From the sequence record PZ452609.1: a stretch of DNA of 64,000 nucleotides. One strand, 5' to 3'. The notes below the pieces were generated by a model. The model searched no databases and was not told the DNA's origin. It was given only the letters and a program-made list of their open reading frames with translations. Positions 46,600-63,381 of the stretch are shown here, piece by piece. The DNA is from a phage. The position numbers and the translations under genes are program-made. The first letter of the stretch is position 1; every line of letters begins with the position of its first letter.

Positions 46600-46699
46600 N
46601 NNNNNNNNNNNNNNNNNNNNNNNNNNNNNNNNNNNNNNNNNNNNNNNNNNNNNNNNNNNNNNNNNNNNNNNNNNNNNNNNNNNNNNNNNNNNNNNNNNN
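46600..46699. other. assembly gap (100 N)
   Basis: Run of exactly 100 n. Confidence 0.95.
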
Positions 46700-56244: not shown

Positions 56245-57660
56245 ATGAGCGAGTTATTTAAACATGCGCACCTTCATGCAGGTCGAACTGAAAATGGTGC
56301 TGTAAACCATACTTCATCAATGTCTGCTCTTGTAGACTTTTACAAAGCTGCTGGTTCAAGCCGTAGCAATGTAGAAATCTTACCAGACCTGTTCTACAAA
56401 GCTTTGCGTGAGGATGTTGATGTTGCAGTTCGTATTTTACTGCATATGCGAGATGTACGAGAAGGTATGGGTGAGCGTAAAGCCTTCAGAGCTGTTTTAC
56501 TTCAAGCGATTGAAGACAAAGTTTTAGAGTCTACGCAGGTTCTTCGCATTATGGATAAGATTGCAGAACTTGGTCGTTTTGATGACTTCAAAATCTTCGT
56601 AGGTACTCGTTTCGAGACAGATGCCTTCAAACATTTAGAAGCAGCATTACTAGACCCTGCAACAGCAGGTTTGGCGGCTAAGTGGTTACCACGAGTCAAA
56701 CCACGTCATAAGCAGTTTGTAAAACGTTTCTGCAAGTTTGCCAACTTGAGTGAGAAAGAGTACCGCACACTGTTGTCTGCACTATCTGATACAGTTGAGC
56801 AAAAAATCTCTGCTAATGAGTTTGGTAAGATTGACTACAGTAAGATTCCTTCACTTGCTGCTGCACGTTACCAAAAACTGTTTAACCGTAAAGATGGAGA
56901 GCGTTACAAAGCTTACATCGAGTCCTTATCAAAAGGTGAGACTAAGATTAACGCTGGTGCTGTTTACCCATACGATGTGATTAAATCTGTCAAGTATGGT
57001 AATGCAGATGTTGCTAATGAGCAGTGGAAAGCACTACCAAACTGGATGGCAGAAGGTGAAAACATCTTGTGTATGTCTGATGTATCAAGTTCAATGTCTT
57101 GGGTGAATTTTGGCTCCATTACTGCTCTGGATATTGGTGTATCACTTGCCTTGTATGTAGCAGAACGCAATACAGGTTGCTTTAAGAATGAGTTGATGGT
57201 TTATTCAACAAACCCTCACTTCATCGAACTGAGTGGTGATTTACGAAACCGTCATCGTCAGGTGATGCGACACGTTGAATATGGCTCAACTAACTTACAA
57301 GCAGCTTTTGACCGCATTCTTGAAACAGGTAAAAGAAACAACTTGACTCAGAAAGATATGCCAAGTAAGCTTATCATCTTCTCCGATATGGAGTTTAATC
57401 AGGTTGATGGAGCTAACGGTCGTACAAACTTTGAAGCAATTCAGAGTAAGTACAAAAAAGCTGGATATGAGATGCCACAACTGGTATTCTGGTACTTAGC
57501 AAACCGTAATGGTACTTGCGAAGTATCTGTTAAGGATAACGGTGTAGCAATGGTATCAGGGTTCTCTCCAGCCACTTTAAAAGCTCTGCTTGGTGGTGAG
57601 AAGTTTGACCCAATCAGTGTAATGCTCAAAGCAGTAATGATTGACCGTTATATCTGGTAA
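56245..57660 (+). CDS. Ro60-like protein (TROVE-like N-terminal region + von Willebrand A domain)
   Basis: C-terminal MIDAS-like DVSSSM..STNLQ..FSDMEF (vWA); N-terminal NGAVNHTSSMSALVDFYKAAGSS follows the Ro60 TROVE pattern G.V...T....L..F...GS; immediately upstream of the tRNA cluster. Confidence 0.5.
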   Translation: MSELFKHAHLHAGRTENGAVNHTSSMSALVDFYKAAGSSRSNVEILPDLFYKALREDVDVAVRILLHMRDVREGMGERKAFRAVLLQAIEDKVLESTQVLRIMDKIAELGRFDDFKIFVGTRFETDAFKHLEAALLDPATAGLAAKWLPRVKPRHKQFVKRFCKFANLSEKEYRTLLSALSDTVEQKISANEFGKIDYSKIPSLAAARYQKLFNRKDGERYKAYIESLSKGETKINAGAVYPYDVIKSVKYGNADVANEQWKALPNWMAEGENILCMSDVSSSMSWVNFGSITALDIGVSLALYVAERNTGCFKNELMVYSTNPHFIELSGDLRNRHRQVMRHVEYGSTNLQAAFDRILETGKRNNLTQKDMPSKLIIFSDMEFNQVDGANGRTNFEAIQSKYKKAGYEMPQLVFWYLANRNGTCEVSVKDNGVAMVSGFSPATLKALLGGEKFDPISVMLKAVMIDRYIW

Positions 57661-57678: not shown

Positions 57679-57707
57679 TTGACAATGTGTTTAATACCCT
57701 TTAATAT
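57679..57707 (+). promoter_or_regulatory. sigma70-like promoter upstream of the tRNA cluster
   Basis: TTGACA, 17-bp spacer, TAATAT. Confidence 0.45.
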
Positions 57708-57825
57708 GTTCTACATAGAAACGAAATGAGAGCTTTTCTAAGATGCTGAAAAATATTTTAAAAAAGTTCTTGACAACCACTAAAAAATAATGTTAAAGTG
57801 GTTACATAAAGTTTGAAAAGTTTAT

Positions 57826-57990: not shown

Positions 57991-58080
57991 GTTTTGACAG
58001 AAGACCAATTACAGCAAACTTAATCTACTCATCTGAAAGTTAATCGGACAAAGAAGATATTTGGTCTGGTCATTAAGAAT

Positions 58081-58157
58081 TGCGGGTATAGAGAAAGGGC
58101 GTCTCACATGTCTCATTAGCATGGTATCGGCAGGTTCGACTCCTGCACCCGCCTCCA
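58081..58157 (+). tRNA. tRNA-Met (anticodon CAT); possible 1:72 mismatch (initiator-like) or register ambiguity
   Basis: Anticodon loop ctCATta; T-arm gcagg-ttcgact-cctgc. Confidence 0.6.
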
Positions 58158-58241
58158 AATTTACAGAAGACCGTTTACAGCAATATTTATTAAATTTTTA
58201 GCGGAAAAAATTGAAATATACGGTCTGGTAATACTAAACAT

Positions 58242-58318
58242 GGTTAGGAAGCACATAAGGTATGTGCGGTCGCCTGTTAAGCGAATGGCACAGGGTTCGA
58301 ATCCCTGACTAACCGCCA
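58242..58318 (+). tRNA. tRNA-Asn (anticodon GTT)
   Basis: Anticodon loop ctGTTaa. Confidence 0.65.
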
Positions 58319-58387
58319 AATTTAGGAGAGAAGCGATTGCTCACCGATTTGTAAGGTACAAGTCCTTAGCCTGAATAGAAATTAAAT

Positions 58388-58475
58388 GTGTCGTTATCCC
58401 GTAGATGGTAGCGGTGGGGACTGTAAATCCCTTGTCATTGAGACTCGGTAGGTTCGACTCCTACACGGCACACCA
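58388..58475 (+). tRNA. tRNA-Tyr (anticodon GTA), long variable arm
   Basis: Anticodon loop ctGTAaa; about 14-nt variable arm. Confidence 0.7.
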
Positions 58476-58480
58476 ATAAA

Positions 58481-58558
58481 GGTTATGTAGTTTAATTTGG
58501 TTAAAATACTCCCCTGTCACGGGAGATGATGAGGGTTCAAATCCCTTCGTAACCGCCA
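58481..58558 (+). tRNA. tRNA-Asp (anticodon GTC)
   Basis: Anticodon loop ctGTCac. Confidence 0.65.
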
Positions 58559-58705
58559 ATTTTGAGAGGGCTATTTAGCCCCTCCCTTAAAGGGTTCTTA
58601 CGAGTATTCTTTAAAGGAGCAGAAGACCAAATACAGCAAGTTATTTAAAATTTCAAGCCAATTTAATTTTGAAAAATTTAAAACTTGGTCTGGCTCAACA
58701 AATTT

Positions 58706-58838
58706 ACAGAAGACCGTTTACAGCAAAACTTAAACAATCTATTTCTCCGGTAAAGAAAAGGCGAAGGTTCGATTCCTTCACTCGGCAGATGTCGAGTTGG
58801 TGTAATGGTAGCACTTAAGATGATAAACAACGGTCTGG
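58706..58838 (+). ncRNA. permuted tRNA-like element, candidate Y RNA-like (YrlA-type) RNA
   Basis: Order is anticodon-like stem-loop, T-arm gaagg-ttcgatt-ccttc, acceptor 3' strand actcggc, short loop, acceptor 5' strand gtcgagt, D-arm tggtgtaatggtagcac; enclosed by an 8-bp helix agaccgtt/aacggtct. Confidence 0.45.
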
Positions 58839-58840
58839 TA

Positions 58841-58982
58841 ATTATCTTTGTAGATAAGTTATTAAGCTTACCTGTGAGTATGCGACCACAAAGGGTGAAA
58901 GGGTAAATTCTAGATTTAAACCCAAAAAGGCACATCGCTACAGACCTTAAGCAAGTCTGGGTAGCTTATCTACAAAGATAAT
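58841..58982. repeat. 19-bp perfect inverted repeat enclosing about 100 nt
   Basis: attatctttgtagataag at 58841 and cttatctacaaagataat at 58963. Confidence 0.7.
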
Positions 58983-58987
58983 TTAAT

Positions 58988-59063
58988 GGAAGTGTAGCAG
59001 AATGGTGATGCGGCAGACTTTTAATCTGACAGGCGATGGGTTCGAATCCCTCCACTTCTACCA
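58988..59063 (+). tRNA. tRNA-Lys (anticodon TTT)
   Basis: Anticodon loop ctTTTaa. Confidence 0.65.
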
Positions 59064-59141
59064 AATTCACCCTTAACTAAGAAACACCTGCGCGGCTGGA
59101 AACACCCACTCAACAGTTTCTCTAACTAGGGTACTTATTCT

Positions 59142-59219: not shown

Positions 59220-59295
59220 GCTGGTATAGTTAAGAAGGTTATAACACTCCCCTGATAAGGGAACATCGGTGGTTCGATTCCACCTACCAGTACCA
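59220..59295 (+). tRNA. tRNA-Ile (anticodon GAT)
   Basis: Anticodon loop ctGATaa. Confidence 0.65.
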
Positions 59296-59310
59296 ATTTC
59301 AATAAAGTTG

Positions 59311-59339
59311 TTGACATTGAGATGTGACTACTTTATAGT
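59311..59339 (+). promoter_or_regulatory. strong sigma70-like promoter inside the tRNA cluster
   Basis: TTGACA, 17-bp spacer, TATAGT. Confidence 0.55.
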
Positions 59340-59570
59340 AACCTTAGTTTTCGTTGCGTAGCGTCTATTTTGCAAATTTAAAATAAATGCAAACGACAAT
59401 GTTTTTCTGGCAGTAGCTTGATAGGCTAAACACCAGTGAGGTCTTCCAATCCCTCATCAAAGAATTTGGCGTACTAGCCCACGGTATGATTAATAAGGTG
59501 GGCAACATTCTAAAGGGTATCCCTTATGGGGCTTGGCTTAAATGCAATGAGTACCCTTTAAAATGTTAAT

Positions 59571-59880: not shown

Positions 59881-60285
59881 ATGAAACTTTGTAGAAAATG
59901 TTCTCAAGAGAAGCCTTTAAGTTGCTTTCATAAAAGAGGGAATGGCTATCAGTCTGCTTGCAAAGATTGTAAAGCTAAGTACTCAGCAAAGAGATACAAA
60001 GAAGACCCTACTTATAAAGCAAAAAGGAAAGTTAGAGCAAAATATGACAAAAAGAGAAACAGAGAGTTCCTTAGTAGATATAAAAAGTTTTGCAAATGCA
60101 GAATATGTGGTGAATCCGAGCCAGTAGCTTTAGATTTTCATCACTTAGACCCTAAAGAGAAAGATTTTGCTCCAAGCAATCTTAAGACTTACTCTAGGGG
60201 AACTATTAAGCGTGAAGTTCGTAAGTGTGTTGTGCTTTGCTCAAACTGTCATAGGAAAGTTCATGCAGGACTGTTAAGTATTTAG
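59881..60285 (+). CDS. HNH endonuclease embedded in the tRNA cluster
   Basis: Cys-rich N-terminus plus FHHLDPKEKDF..CSNCHRKVH HNH motif. Confidence 0.7.
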   Translation: MKLCRKCSQEKPLSCFHKRGNGYQSACKDCKAKYSAKRYKEDPTYKAKRKVRAKYDKKRNREFLSRYKKFCKCRICGESEPVALDFHHLDPKEKDFAPSNLKTYSRGTIKREVRKCVVLCSNCHRKVHAGLLSI

Positions 60286-61398: not shown

Positions 61399-61641
61399 AT
61401 GCAAACATTAACAGTAGTTGAACATGAAAACTGTGAGAGTATTGAGTTTGTCAGGGTCATTGGTGTTGAACACCACATTTTCTTAAAAGTGGGATACTTA
61501 TGTGACCCCGCTAGAGTAGAAAGCTTTATACGTGATTGTTTTGGTGGTAGACATCTGAAGAGTGTTATTTTTGAGACAGTTTTACCAGAAGGTTTAGAAA
61601 CGAATAATAACATTTACCTCCTTACGAGGATTAGACAATGA
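61399..61641 (+). CDS. hypothetical protein (inside tRNA cluster)
   Basis: 80-aa ORF with AAGGTGA RBS. Confidence 0.45.
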   Translation: MQTLTVVEHENCESIEFVRVIGVEHHIFLKVGYLCDPARVESFIRDCFGGRHLKSVIFETVLPEGLETNNNIYLLTRIRQ

Positions 61642-62195
61642 GATACTTAAAGTATGCTTCATGGATTTTCTTAGCTTTGTTAGAGCCATTTGCAGCAATC
61701 TTAGCAGTTATCTTAGCACCTTTTGTAGTTCCATTCTACAGTGAGAAGAAAGGACACTTACCTTTCGGGTTCAGATGGATGGAGACTTATGACAACCCAA
61801 TTGATGGTGATGCAGGTCATATCAAACGATGGGCTAAGATTAGAAAGATTGGTAAGCTTGGTGTCTACATGCAGAGAGTTGGATGGCTCTGGAGAAACAA
61901 AGCTTATAACTTCTCTTACCATGTATTAGGAAGAGATGTAAAAGATGTTACTAAGTGGAAAGGTAATATCAACGTAAGTTCTAACCCTGAAGATAATCAG
62001 ACTGGTTATCTCCTAATGTGGAACAGTAATGCTTGGGGATTATTCGCTTTTGTGCCGTCAATCAAAATCTTTGGTAAACAATTTTACTGGAGAATTTATG
62101 TTGGGTGGAAACTTAAAAGTGTTGTCCCAGAAGAAAGAGCATTTTCAAGGGAAAGAGTTATGTTGGCATTCTTTATTCATCCACTAAGAAAGTAA
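61638..62195 (+). CDS. membrane protein (inside tRNA cluster)
   Basis: 185 aa with N-terminal TM segment. Confidence 0.45.
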   Translation: MRYLKYASWIFLALLEPFAAILAVILAPFVVPFYSEKKGHLPFGFRWMETYDNPIDGDAGHIKRWAKIRKIGKLGVYMQRVGWLWRNKAYNFSYHVLGRDVKDVTKWKGNINVSSNPEDNQTGYLLMWNSNAWGLFAFVPSIKIFGKQFYWRIYVGWKLKSVVPEERAFSRERVMLAFFIHPLRK

Positions 62196-62553: not shown

Positions 62554-62630
62554 TAGTCCAAGTAGCTTATATGGTTAAAGCGCGTGTCTGAAAAACATGA
62601 GAAGAGGGTTCAAATCCCACTGGACTACCA
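62554..62630 (+). tRNA. tRNA-Phe (anticodon GAA), irregular acceptor register
   Basis: Anticodon loop ctGAAaa; D-stem gctt/aagc. Confidence 0.55.
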
Positions 62631-62646
62631 ATTTCAAAGGTGCTTA

Positions 62647-63381
62647 ATGAAAGAGATGACAGAACAAGGTAAGGAGATTTTCAATCTCTTAAAAACCGGT
62701 AAAGGGTTTTCTAACCCCCTTATTACTGGTGCAGCAGTTCTCGGTGGAACCGTAGCTGCCTCTACATCACTTGTAAGCTCTATTAGTTCTGTATCAGACC
62801 CTACAGTAAAGGATAAGATTGTTGCTGCTGGACTTACAACAGTTCTGCTTAACAGCTTTACCACGAGTCTGACAAGCACTACATCAACTACCAAAACACT
62901 AACAGATTACGGTCAAAAGTCCATTGATGAGTTTTCATCACGTATGCAGGTAGCAAAAGGTTACTCTAATGTTATGGGTGCAGCAGGTGAACAAGTTGGC
63001 TGTACACCATTTAGTGGTATTATGGGTGTTGCTACAGAGTATGGTCAAAAAGCTATTGATACGATTAACAGTGCACTAGATAGTGTTAATGGTGTGTTAA
63101 GTGACTTACAAGATGCTATTGACAAAGGTCTTGATACTATTTCTGATTTAGCTGAGCAAGCTGTTAGTAAGATTAATGAAGGTATTTCAAAAATTACAGC
63201 TTATGCAGATGAAGTTGTGCAGATGATTGAAGAAGAAGCTGCTCTTATTGCAGAGTACCTTAAAACGAATATCAATGGGTTCTTAGCAGGTATCTTACCA
63301 GACTGGTTTGATGATGCTTGTAAAACTGGTGTAATTGACACTATTGCAACACCAGAAATGAAGAACGCATTACAGAAATAA
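62647..63381 (+). CDS. hypothetical protein, Ser/Thr/Ala-rich
   Basis: Start moved to MKEMTEQ (AAAGGTG RBS) because the track start overlaps tRNA-Phe. Confidence 0.5.
   Translation: MKEMTEQGKEIFNLLKTGKGFSNPLITGAAVLGGTVAASTSLVSSISSVSDPTVKDKIVAAGLTTVLLNSFTTSLTSTTSTTKTLTDYGQKSIDEFSSRMQVAKGYSNVMGAAGEQVGCTPFSGIMGVATEYGQKAIDTINSALDSVNGVLSDLQDAIDKGLDTISDLAEQAVSKINEGISKITAYADEVVQMIEEEAALIAEYLKTNINGFLAGILPDWFDDACKTGVIDTIATPEMKNALQK

What the first reader, a model, noticed from the sequence alone, without database searches (positions are those of the whole stretch)
58841..58982. 19-bp perfect inverted repeat enclosing about 100 nt immediately before tRNA-Lys
A helix this long between tRNA genes is unusual. 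It could be a processing substrate, a structured RNA, or the footprint of an inserted element.
Basis: seen in the sequence. Interest (0 to 1): 0.45.

Follow-up and report, generated by a model that had tools for sequence, protein, structure and literature searches.

The report
Closing helix of phage Y-RNA-like domain
The inverted repeat is the conserved closing helix of a ~145-nt structured non-coding RNA domain, which ends an unannotated cluster of Y-RNA-like, tRNA-mimicking RNAs hidden between the tRNA genes of FelixO1-type phages, just downstream of a Ro60-like RNA-binding protein gene.

Summary
There are 19 Watson-Crick pairs (58840-58858 / 58965-58983), extending to 23-24 bp, 4 nt before tRNA-Lys. 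It is the only such repeat in the window.

It is a selected RNA helix, not an insertion scar. Across three phage genera it keeps pairing through four double substitutions and one matched pair deletion.

It closes domain D3 of a 429-nt non-coding spacer between tRNA-Asp and tRNA-Lys. The spacer is present in about 250 Ounavirinae genomes.

The neighbouring domain D2 (58704-58841) is a circularly permuted tRNA mimic with YrlA architecture: V arm, T arm, closed acceptor hairpin, D arm. Its bulged closing helix is followed by UACAGCAA.

That helix-plus-motif element occurs four times in the window's inter-tRNA spacers. A trimmed fifth copy lies inside D3.

The gene 1 kb upstream (56245-57660, DUF2828/DUF7788) folds as Ro60. 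A covariance model of D2 finds covarying homologues beside this gene in distant phages.

D3 itself is confined to the Felixounavirus, Mooglevirus and Suspvirus genera, and its specific role is unknown.

Best reading: D3 is a lineage-specific terminal domain of a phage Ro60/Y-RNA-like system. RNase III processing of the helix remains possible.

The parts
56245..57660 (+). Ro60-like protein gene (471 aa; Pfam DUF2828 + DUF7788; helical-repeat ring plus vWA-type domain)
   Evidence: Pfam matches. AF2 model with pLDDT 89.5. The Foldseek top 10 are all full-length Ro60/TROVE structures, E 3.5e-8 to 1.6e-6, TM up to 0.66. The Bas63 ortholog gp130 was called Ro60-like in the PhageMaP preprint. The protein is 31-34% identical to mycobacteriophage 'Ro-like RNA binding protein'.
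57679..57799 (+). Two sigma-70-like promoters (57679-57707 and 57770-57799) between the Ro60-like gene and the first tRNA
   Evidence: Consensus scan, 10 of 12 matches each. No + strand terminator-like site lies in the Asp-Lys spacer. Consensus matches only; function is inferred.
57995..58072 (+). Short Y-like stem-loop, copy A (Glu-Met spacer): UGAC-AGA-AGACCAA-UUACAGCAA...UUGGUCU-G-GUCA
   Evidence: R1 model hit, 40.7 bits, E 2e-6. Sequence, motif. Conserved in Sf19 and Mordin.
58161..58231 (+). Short Y-like stem-loop, copy B (Met-Asn spacer): UUAC-AGA-AGACCGU-UUACAGCAA...ACGGUCU-G-GUAA
   Evidence: R1 model hit, 51.1 bits, E 6e-9. Sequence. Conserved in Sf19 and Mordin.
58562..58619 (+). 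Two conserved 5' hairpins of the spacer (58568-58581 GGGCU/AGCCC; 58582-58619 with a UACG tetraloop)
   Evidence: MFE fold. Nearly invariant in 9 genomes of 3 genera. No covariation is available, so the structure is inferred.
58617..58696 (+). Domain D1 = Y-like stem-loop, copy C: GAGC-AGA-AGACCAA-AUACAGCAA...UUGGUCU-G-GCUC
   Evidence: Fold, motif, alignment. The outer 4-bp helix competes with the base of the preceding hairpin, so that pairing is tentative.
58704..58841 (+). Domain D2 = YrlA-like tRNA mimic. Closing helix UUAC-AGA-AGACCGUU / AACGGUCU-G-GUAA, then UACAGCAA. V arm 58742-58758, T arm 58763-58779, closed 7-bp acceptor hairpin 58780-58797, UG, D arm 58800-58814.
   Evidence: The unconstrained MFE gives the cloverleaf. 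RNAalifold agrees. Model R1 finds homologues in distant phages. On 32 sequences 94.5% of cells are paired and 29 of 31 pairs changed on both sides.
58840..58983 (+). Domain D3 = the finding: a 23-24-bp closing helix (58840-58863 / 58960-58983) enclosing about 100 nt of small hairpins
   Evidence: RNAalifold and pair counts: helix 99.5% paired, 4 pairs changed on both sides, one matched pair deletion. Present in 190 (window-type) plus 60 (alternative-type) phage records.
58907..58916 (+). Invariant AUUCUAGAUU at the apex of an inner D3 hairpin (contains the palindrome UCUAGA)
   Evidence: Identical in both D3 forms and all three genera. Role unknown.
58938..58964 (+). Trimmed fifth copy of the Y-like element inside D3: CUAC-AGAC-C-UUAAGCAA-GUCU-GG-GUAG
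   Evidence: Sequence. Hairpin predicted in all variants. Pair 112:128 switches AU<->GC. Its GUAG overlaps the top of the outer helix, so the two pairings are alternatives.
58988..59063 (+). tRNA-Lys(UUU). Its RNase P site should create the 3' end of the spacer RNA, 4 nt after the helix.
   Evidence: ARAGORN and Rfam. The processing step is inferred from general tRNA biology.

Best explanation
The inverted repeat is the closing helix of D3. D3 is the last of three helix-closed domains that fill the non-coding spacer between tRNA-Asp and tRNA-Lys. The spacer is transcribed with the tRNA array and should be freed by tRNA processing. RNase P cutting at tRNA-Lys would leave the helix plus a 4-nt tail as a nuclease-resistant 3' end (inferred).

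The spacer, together with two other inter-tRNA spacers, encodes the RNA partners of the adjacent Ro60-like protein. There are three short stem-bulge-stem RNAs, analogous to YrlB, and one YrlA-like RNA whose core is a circularly permuted tRNA mimic.

All share a bulged helix (NNNC-AGA-AGACC / GGUCU-G-GNNN) followed by UACAGCAA. This motif occupies the position where canonical YrlA carries its Ro-binding motif, and I take it to be the protein's binding site (inferred).

D3 is an addition specific to Felixounavirus, Mooglevirus and Suspvirus. It embeds a trimmed copy of that site in a long-stemmed, multi-hairpin scaffold. It most likely acts as an extra Ro-binding or effector-binding and stabilising module of this RNP (inferred).

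In the related phage Bas63 the protein counters the Ppl defence system.
For: Shown:
- The helix is real and non-random.
- It covaries: 23 pairs, 99.5% paired, 4 double changes plus a matched pair deletion. Slid controls give 27-50% paired.
- The region is non-coding. The minus-strand ORF is not conserved, and alignment indels are not multiples of three.
- There are promoters upstream and no terminator inside the spacer.
- D2 has YrlA's order V-T-AS-D with canonical T and D loops.
- The D2 family covaries strongly across 32 sequences from distant phages. All 32 hits at E<=0.01 lie on the gene's strand, and many are within tens of nt of the gene.
- D2-like RNA is also found in the gap after the mycobacteriophage Nicholas 'Ro-like' gene.
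- The neighbouring protein has the Ro60 fold.
- The clade's Ro60-like gene (251 records), the spacer (252) and D3 (190+60) co-occur.
- The motif occurs 7 times against 0.7 expected. The four full copies are all inside the array on the + strand, and they are conserved in every Ounavirinae locus fetched.

Literature:
- Bas63 gp130 is Ro60-like and counters Ppl. The authors suspected unidentified Y RNAs among the tRNAs.
- Listeria phage CKA15 has abundant ncRNAs next to the homologous gene.
Against: - There are no expression or binding data for this phage. RNA ends, the number of RNA species and Ro binding are all inferred.
- D3 is absent from all 75 distant loci that carry the protein, both by model and by a structure-only test. 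It is therefore not a core part of the system.
- D3's inner copy lacks the AGA bulge and has AAGCAA/UAGCAA instead of ACAGCAA.
- The canonical YrlA Ro-binding motif GNCGAAN0-1G is not present.
- Rfam has no matching family.
- The interior of D3 exists in two rather different forms.
- Some R1 hits in tRNA arrays may be tandem-tRNA artefacts (for example CKA15 295-424).
Confidence: 0.6

Rival explanations
1. RNase III processing stem. The 23-24-bp helix is mainly a double-strand cleavage site, like the stems flanking 16S/23S rRNA or the T7 early RNase III sites. Cleavage would separate the upstream RNAs from tRNA-Lys and/or release the enclosed ~100-nt RNA. This is compatible with the best explanation rather than exclusive of it.
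For: The helix is at least two turns long and nearly uninterrupted in all genera. A pair was lost from both arms together, keeping 23 bp. It lies in a polycistronic tRNA transcript. No such helix exists in distant phages that have the Y-like RNAs, so it may serve a separate purpose.
Against: The enclosed sequence is itself conserved and structured, with an invariant AUUCUAGAUU and a covarying inner hairpin. RNase P at tRNA-Lys and 3' trimming of tRNA-Asp already suffice to release the spacer. No cleavage data exist, and no RNase III recognition test is available here.
Confidence: 0.2
2. An independent, lineage-specific structured ncRNA with no connection to the Ro60-like protein, which merely resides in the same spacer. 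Phage T4 similarly has stable RNAs of unknown function in its tRNA cluster.
For: D3 is not found with the protein outside three genera. Its similarity to the shared motif is partial. There is no Rfam match.
Against: D3 abuts D2, overlapping it by 2 nt. It is always present with D2 in about 250 genomes. It carries a hairpin with the same CUAC/GUAG-AGACC/GGUCU-AGCAA layout as the four full copies.
Confidence: 0.15
3. Footprint or terminal inverted repeats of a small inserted mobile element (MITE-like).
For: 22-nt inverted termini enclosing about 100 nt.
Against: It is single-copy in the window and in related genomes. It sits at the orthologous site in three genera. No flanking direct duplication is visible in the sequence. 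The arms evolve by compensatory changes that preserve pairing, as expected for an RNA helix and not for transposase-binding ends. E. coli genomes hold no copies.
Confidence: 0.02
4. Part of a protein-coding gene on the minus strand (ORF 58678-58935, annotated as a hypothetical protein in phage wV8), or an intrinsic terminator.
For: An 85-aa ORF exists and is annotated in some records.
Against: The ORF has no Pfam match. It overlaps the tRNA-like module. The stop-free stretch drops from 95 aa to 44-71 aa in other lineages. No + strand terminator-like site is found. A 100-nt loop with no U-tract is not terminator-like.
Confidence: 0.02

Closest known systems
YrlA RNAs (bacterial and phage Y RNA-like A; Chen et al. 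2014, PMC4201824; structure preprint 10.1101/312249)
   Same: This applies to D2, the neighbour of the finding. Both are encoded within 4 kb of a Ro60-type gene and on its strand. Both have 5' and 3' ends that pair. Both have a core that is a circularly permuted tRNA mimic in the order V, T, closed acceptor stem, D, with canonical T and D loops and a U-R dinucleotide between AS and D. The acceptor stem is variable. In some members (Mordin, L087) it is 7 bp and followed by encoded (G/A)CCA, like the RNase P-cleaved M. smegmatis YrlA.
   Different: The partner protein is a very divergent Ro60 (DUF2828/DUF7788, not Pfam TROVE). The conserved motif after the 5' strand is UACAGCAA with an AGA/G bulged helix, not GNCGAAN0-1G. 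The genes lie inside a tRNA array, in several copies. D3, the finding itself, has no YrlA counterpart.
YrlB and generic Y RNAs, including Thermus phage phiLo Yrl1/Yrl2 (PMC12135203)
   Same: Both have stem-bulge-stem RNAs formed by pairing of the two ends, a conserved motif near the 5' strand, several per locus next to Ro60. D3 likewise has a long terminal stem closing a large multi-hairpin loop.
   Different: D3's terminal stem is unusually long and nearly perfect, and lacks the bulged motif. The motif-like hairpin is internal. There is no CGAA motif. Binding is untested.
Stable RNAs of the phage T4 tRNA cluster (species 1 and 2 RNAs) - recalled from memory, not tested
   Same: Both are structured, non-tRNA RNAs encoded among phage tRNA genes and matured by the tRNA-processing machinery.
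   Different: No sequence similarity was detected: a search of 50,697 phage records returned records named almost only as phages of enterobacteria (Escherichia, Salmonella, Shigella, Citrobacter), apart from one labelled Staphylococcus and one labelled Campylobacter, with no other phage groups. T4 lacks the Ro60-like gene context as far as I know.
RNase III processing stems (rRNA operons, T7 early RNAs) - established knowledge, not tested
   Same: A helix of at least 22 bp formed by sequences flanking a structured RNA within a polycistronic transcript.
   Different: No cleavage evidence. The enclosed RNA is small and carries a Y-like hairpin.

Membership tests
YrlA (applied to D2, 58704-58841) | Encoded within 4 kb of, and on the same strand as, a Ro60 ortholog | tested here: met
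   The gene ends at 57660 and D2 starts at 58704, same strand. The protein has the Ro60 fold. The criterion is from Chen 2014.
YrlA (applied to D2) | T-like and D-like stem-loops with tRNA-invariant loop nucleotides, separated by a closed 'acceptor' stem-loop (order T-AS-D) | tested here: met
   GAAGG-UUCGAUU-CCUUC; ACUCGGC-AGAU-GUCGAGU; GUGU-AAUGGUA-GCAC. The MFE and RNAalifold both give these arms. All AS pairs covary over 32 sequences.
YrlA (applied to D2) | Less conserved V stem-loop upstream of T | tested here: met
   UUUCU-CCGGUAA-AGAAA at 58742-58758. It covaries in distant hits (helix 3, 85% paired) but is not formed in register in Mordin and Michonne.
YrlA (applied to D2) | 5' and 3' ends pair to form the Ro-binding stem | tested here: met
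   Helices 1 and 2 (4 + 7 bp with a bulge). All 11 pairs changed on both sides; 88-98% paired.
YrlA (applied to D2) | GNCGAAN0-1G motif near the 5' end | tested here: not met
   No exact match in the 5' strand. The nearest are ACAGAAG and GCAGAAG (one mismatch). The motif actually conserved at that position is U(U/A)CAGCAA. The GGCGAAG at 58760 overlaps the T stem and is not conserved.
YrlA (applied to D2) | Match to the published YrlA covariance model / an Rfam family | not testable with these tools
   The paper's supplementary alignments are not held. Rfam 15 gives only a partial tRNA hit at 22 bits.
YrlA / Y RNA (D1, D2, D3, copies A and B) | Bound by the Ro60 protein in vivo | not testable with these tools
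   Needs RIP/EMSA.
Y RNA, generic (applied to D3, the finding) | Terminal stem formed by the RNA's two ends, enclosing a large loop or effector module | tested here: met
   A 23-24-bp covarying helix encloses about 100 nt with 3-4 hairpins. The actual RNA ends are not known.
Y RNA, generic (applied to D3) | Conserved bulged Ro-binding helix within the terminal stem | tested here: not met
   The terminal stem has no conserved bulge or motif. The motif-like element (58938-58964) is an internal hairpin and is trimmed.
RNase III substrate (applied to D3 helix) | Roughly two turns (>=20-22 bp) of near-continuous double helix | tested here: met
   23-24 bp in all nine genomes, 99.5% paired.
RNase III substrate (applied to D3 helix) | Cleavage by RNase III | not testable with these tools
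   Needs an rnc mutant comparison or an in vitro assay.
Functional (permuted) tRNA gene / tmRNA (considered for D2) | Conserved 7-nt anticodon loop with U33 / a tag reading frame and G3:U70 | tested here: not met
   The V loop varies: CCGGUAA, a 6-nt loop in tootiki, CUAUAAA in ESh22, none in Mordin. ARAGORN finds no tRNA or tmRNA even with introns allowed. The acceptor pair 3:70 is C-G. There is no conserved ORF.
Miniature inverted-repeat element (considered for D3) | Multiple dispersed copies, target-site duplication, presence/absence polymorphism | tested here: not met
   Single copy. Fixed at one site in about 250 genomes. No flanking duplication. None in E. coli genomes.

The most novel reading that the evidence does not exclude
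The whole tRNA-array region from 57995 to 58987 encodes a multi-site RNA scaffold with four full and one trimmed binding site for a divergent phage Ro60. It includes one tRNA mimic whose acceptor hairpin can be opened by RNase P to give a two-piece, CCA-ended molecule. D3's long helix plus its 4-nt 3' tail, created by RNase P at tRNA-Lys, would be threaded into or docked on the Ro60-like ring, as misfolded-RNA substrates are. The assembled higher-order RNP would be the agent that neutralises the host Ppl defence system or redirects host exonucleases. D3 would then be a new kind of Y-RNA accessory domain specific to FelixO1-like phages.
Probability: 0.2. Interest if true: 0.75.

Novelty: new variant of a known kind. 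Interest (0 to 1): 0.6.

Why it matters
FelixO1-type phages are widely used for typing and biocontrol of Salmonella and E. coli, yet this 429-nt spacer is left blank or mis-annotated in about 250 genomes, as a hypothetical ORF or as an intron-containing 'tRNA-Thr'.

A 2024 functional screen showed that the neighbouring Ro60-like protein of phage Bas63 counters the Ppl defence system. Its authors guessed that some annotated tRNAs might be its Y RNAs.

The present analysis pinpoints concrete, covarying candidates instead. They are one YrlA-like tRNA mimic, three short stem-bulge RNAs, and the long-stemmed D3 domain. All share a conserved motif (UACAGCAA after a bulged helix) that differs from the canonical Ro-binding motif.

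This makes the protein-RNA partnership directly testable. It also extends Y-RNA-like partners to the large DUF2828 branch of phage Ro60 proteins, which is present in 710 phage records.

Finally, it shows that inter-tRNA spacers of phage tRNA arrays can be gene-dense in structured RNAs.

Tried and rejected
1. Permuted tRNA gene or tmRNA. I first read 58742-58814 as a permuted tRNA-Thr or a two-piece tmRNA. ARAGORN with introns, relaxed thresholds and tmRNA mode found nothing convincing. The 'anticodon' loop is not conserved, no tag ORF is conserved, and there is no G3:U70 pair.
2. Permuted group I intron-exon arrangement. There is no Intron_gpI or other ribozyme hit in Rfam, even at E<=10. There is no G at the required 3' splice position. 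The flanks instead form their own covarying helices.
3. GNCGAAG at 58760. It overlaps the T stem and is not conserved.
4. Sequence search of the protein against PDB chains found nothing. Only the fold comparison revealed Ro60.
5. The supplementary YrlA alignments and the 2020 Annual Review are not held, so the published model could not be run.
6. The D3 covariance model found nothing in 75 distant loci. No long inverted repeat follows their tRNA-like modules.
7. E. coli genomes hold no similarity to the spacer, so it is not a host-RNA mimic at the sequence level and not prophage-borne.
8. The weak Rfam resemblance of D1 to Dictyostelium Class I RNA (16.6 bits against a gathering score of 41.5) is treated as chance.
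9. The R1 hit in Listeria phage CKA15 (295-424) overlaps an annotated tRNA-Lys. It may be a tandem-tRNA artefact, so it is not used as evidence.

Full report
**Observation.** The window is a FelixO1-type myovirus, 100% identical over the tested kilobase to E. coli O157 typing phage 15 (genus Felixounavirus). It carries an array of 27 tRNA genes on the + strand.

The reported inverted repeat exists. Its arms are 58840-58861 and 58962-58983, 22 nt each, with one U.G position and 100 nt between them. The perfectly Watson-Crick part is 19 bp, 58840-58858 with 58965-58983. Folding extends the helix to about 24 bp. The helix ends 4 nt before tRNA-Lys, which starts at 58988.

It is the only perfect inverted repeat of 14 nt or more with a loop of 300 nt or less in the 64 kb. 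The chance expectation for a 19-mer is about 7e-5. The segment folds 5 standard deviations better than shuffles.

**The helix is under selection as RNA.** The 429-nt tRNA-Asp to tRNA-Lys spacer has about the same length in all relatives examined and is nearly invariant within the genus. A search with the spacer alone finds it in 252 phage records.

Aligning nine genomes from Felixounavirus, Mooglevirus and Suspvirus shows the arms changing together. The window has GUAGAUAAG/CUUAUCUAC, whereas the other genera have GCAG-UGAC/GUUA-CUGC. One base is deleted from each arm.

RNAalifold and explicit pair counts give 23 pairs for the outer helix, 99.5% of cells paired, and four pairs changed on both sides. 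Sliding the partners by 1-3 columns gives only 27-50% pairing.

The enclosed ~100 nt occurs in two forms. The window-type is in 190 records and the alternative type is in 60, including all Mooglevirus and Suspvirus. Both forms keep an invariant AUUCUAGAUU and a covarying hairpin, CAGACC/GGUCUG.

The minus-strand ORF annotated here in some genomes is not conserved. There is no + strand terminator in the spacer, and two sigma-70-like promoters precede the array. So this is a non-coding structured RNA domain, which I call D3. It is not an insertion scar, a terminator or a gene.

**The surroundings.** The unconstrained fold of the whole spacer gives three helix-closed domains.

Domain D2 (58704-58841) contains, in order:
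- a small V hairpin;
- a perfect T arm (GAAGG-UUCGAUU-CCUUC);
- a 7-bp hairpin whose two strands are the 3' and 5' acceptor strands of a tRNA (ACUCGGC-AGAU-GUCGAGU);
- UG;
- a D arm (GUGU-AAUGGUA-GCAC).

The acceptor hairpin is completely different but still complementary in other genera: ACACGU-UACG-GCGUGU in Sf19 and SUSP1, and ACCCUUC-GCCAAACA-GAAGGGU in Mordin.

This is the architecture published for YrlA, the tRNA-mimicking bacterial Y RNA. YrlA has the order V, T, closed acceptor stem, D, flanked by a stem formed by the RNA's two ends. [quoted passage not shown]

**The protein partner.** YrlA RNAs lie within 4 kb of, and on the same strand as, a Ro60 ortholog. The ORF ending 1 kb upstream of D2 (56245-57660) matches only Pfam DUF2828 and DUF7788 and has no sequence match in the PDB.

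A confident AlphaFold model (pLDDT 89.5) has Ro60/TROVE structures as its ten best Foldseek matches, over its full length. They include Thermus phage Ro60 (9KOP), Xenopus and human Ro60, and Deinococcus Rsr (E 3.5e-8 to 1.6e-6, TM up to 0.66). After them come only isolated vWA domains.

By tblastn the family is in 710 phage records and is 31-34% identical to mycobacteriophage genes annotated 'Ro-like RNA binding protein'.

The Ro60 likeness of the Bas63 ortholog (gp130) was noted in the PhageMaP preprint. [quoted passage not shown]

**A repeated element.** D1 and D2 begin and end with the same bulged helix followed by the same motif. Two more copies without a tRNA-like core fill the Glu-Met and Met-Asn spacers:

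| Copy | Element |
|---|---|
| A | UGAC-AGA-AGACCAA-UUACAGCAA...UUGGUCU-G-GUCA |
| B | UUAC-AGA-AGACCGU-UUACAGCAA...ACGGUCU-G-GUAA |
| C (D1) | GAGC-AGA-AGACCAA-AUACAGCAA...UUGGUCU-G-GCUC |
| D (D2) | UUAC-AGA-AGACCGUU-UACAGCAA...AACGGUCU-G-GUAA |

The outer and inner helices differ between copies but stay complementary. D3 contains a trimmed fifth copy: CUAC-AGAC-C-UUAAGCAA-GUCU-GG-GUAG (58938-58964). The motif occurs 7 times in the window against 0.7 expected. The copies are conserved in every Ounavirinae locus fetched.

**Distant phages.** A covariance model of D2 (R1) was run on 75 viral contigs whose Ro60-like protein is only 38-47% identical. It found full-length matches at E<0.01 in about fifteen of them. 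All are on the gene's strand, and many lie within tens of nucleotides of the gene.

On the 32 best matches:
- 94.5% of cells are paired, against 60.6% in shuffles and about 42% when slid;
- 29 of 31 pairs changed on both sides;
- the covariation score is 0.52 against 0.04-0.07.

The conserved single-stranded motif is U(U/A)CAGCAA immediately after the 5' strand of the closing helix. This is where canonical YrlA has GNCGAAN0-1G, a motif that is not present here.

The model also hits the unannotated gap after the Ro-like gene of mycobacteriophage Nicholas. That match has GGACCCC..CACAGCAA..T..AS..D..GGGGUCC at 28 bits, E 7e-5. Some members (Mordin, Michonne, L087) encode (G/A)CCA after a 7-bp acceptor stem. 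This recalls the M. smegmatis YrlA that is cut by RNase P and receives CCA.

In Listeria phage CKA15 the homologous gene lies beside three very abundant, unexplained ncRNA regions and an RtcB ligase gene.

**What D3 is.** A model of D3 (R2) finds only Felixounavirus-type sequences. None of 14 distant loci has even a 10-nt inverted repeat enclosing 20 nt or more after its tRNA-like module. E. coli genomes hold nothing similar.

In the clade, 251 records carry the Ro60-like gene at 80% identity or more, 252 carry the spacer, and 250 carry one of the two D3 forms.

I therefore read D3 as a lineage-specific terminal domain of this Ro60/Y-RNA-like locus.
- Shown: the helix, the inner hairpins, co-occurrence with the rest of the system, and the partial binding-site-like hairpin.
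- Inferred: co-transcription with the tRNAs; release by tRNA processing, with RNase P at 58987|58988 leaving a long helix plus a 4-nt tail that should resist 3' exonucleases; binding by the Ro60-like protein; and any effector role.

The length and perfection of the helix also make RNase III cleavage a serious, non-exclusive possibility.

**Comparison and novelty.** D2 meets every structural and positional criterion of YrlA except the Ro-binding sequence motif. It could not be scored with the published model. I therefore call it YrlA-like rather than a YrlA member. D3 has the general Y-RNA shape, with ends paired and a large structured loop, but not the bulged binding helix in its terminal stem.

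Rfam has no family for any of these. The literature held here contains only the PhageMaP speculation.

The finding is thus a new variant of a known kind. It comprises a divergent Ro60 branch with its own RNA motif, multi-copy genes embedded in a tRNA array, and an extra long-stemmed domain of unknown role.

Noticed in passing
window 57995-58072 and 58161-58231: The tRNA-Glu/Met and tRNA-Met/Asn spacers each hold a short stem-bulge-stem RNA with the same AGA-AGACC...UUACAGCAA...GGUCU-G layout as the domains in the Asp-Lys spacer. They are conserved in Mooglevirus.
   Followed up: yes
window 59064-59141: A ~78-nt segment between tRNA-Lys and tRNA-Met is present in the window, KhF3, MET-P1-301, Sf19 and Michonne. 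It is absent in VpaE1, Meda and Mordin, where the two tRNAs are 4-6 nt apart. This indel explains the '92% coverage in two pieces' of many BLAST hits.
   Followed up: no
L004 (Escherichia phage MET-P1-301) 1118-1612: This phage has a ~495-nt insertion between tRNA-Met and tRNA-Ile. The two genes are adjacent in the window (59218/59220).
   Followed up: no
window 46600-46699: A run of exactly 100 N (assembly gap or masked stretch). It swamps naive repeat counts.
   Followed up: yes
window 59296-59570: A 275-nt unannotated spacer after tRNA-Ile holds the best sigma-70-like promoter of the region (59311-59339, 11 of 12 matches). It also gives a sub-threshold Rfam hit to tmRNA_permuted (59237-59421, 29 bits against a gathering score of 47).
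   Followed up: no
window 58625-58692: D1 gives a weak Rfam match to Dictyostelium Class I RNA (16.6 bits, E 2.5). That family is also a short stem followed by ...UUACAGCAA. This is probably coincidence, but the motif identity is striking.
   Followed up: partly
L011/L012 (Mordin, Michonne) acceptor hairpin; L087 7792-7923: In these phages the 7-bp acceptor-like stem of the tRNA mimic is followed by an encoded GCCA or ACCA and a short linker. This suggests RNase P cleavage to a two-piece, CCA-ended RNA. In Sf19 and SUSP1 the stem is capped by a UACG tetraloop instead.
   Followed up: partly
L094 (Escherichia phage REP5) 201-331; L001 (wV8) 579-836: The spacer RNA is mis-annotated in public records. 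In REP5 it is called a 131-nt 'tRNA-Thr (GGT)'. In wV8 and FelixO1 it is covered by a minus-strand hypothetical protein gene.
   Followed up: yes
L095 (Listeria phage CKA15): The layout is the same as in the window: a tRNA array whose spacers carry tiny 'hypothetical protein' ORFs, then the Ro60-like gene (CKA15_055), then an RtcB 'tRNA splicing ligase' 1.3 kb downstream. This parallels the Salmonella rsr-yrlBA-rtcBA operon.
   Followed up: partly
window 59881-60285, 61638-62195, 62584-63381: Protein genes are interspersed in the tRNA array: a weak HNH-endonuclease-like ORF (E about 0.006) and two DUF proteins (DUF7338, DUF7217).
   Followed up: no
L003 (KhF3) and L011 (Mordin), just after tRNA-Asp: Two phages of different genera share the same 25-nt insertion (ATTATAATAAGTATTTCAAAATGAT) between tRNA-Asp and the first spacer hairpin. 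This suggests recombination across genera.
   Followed up: no
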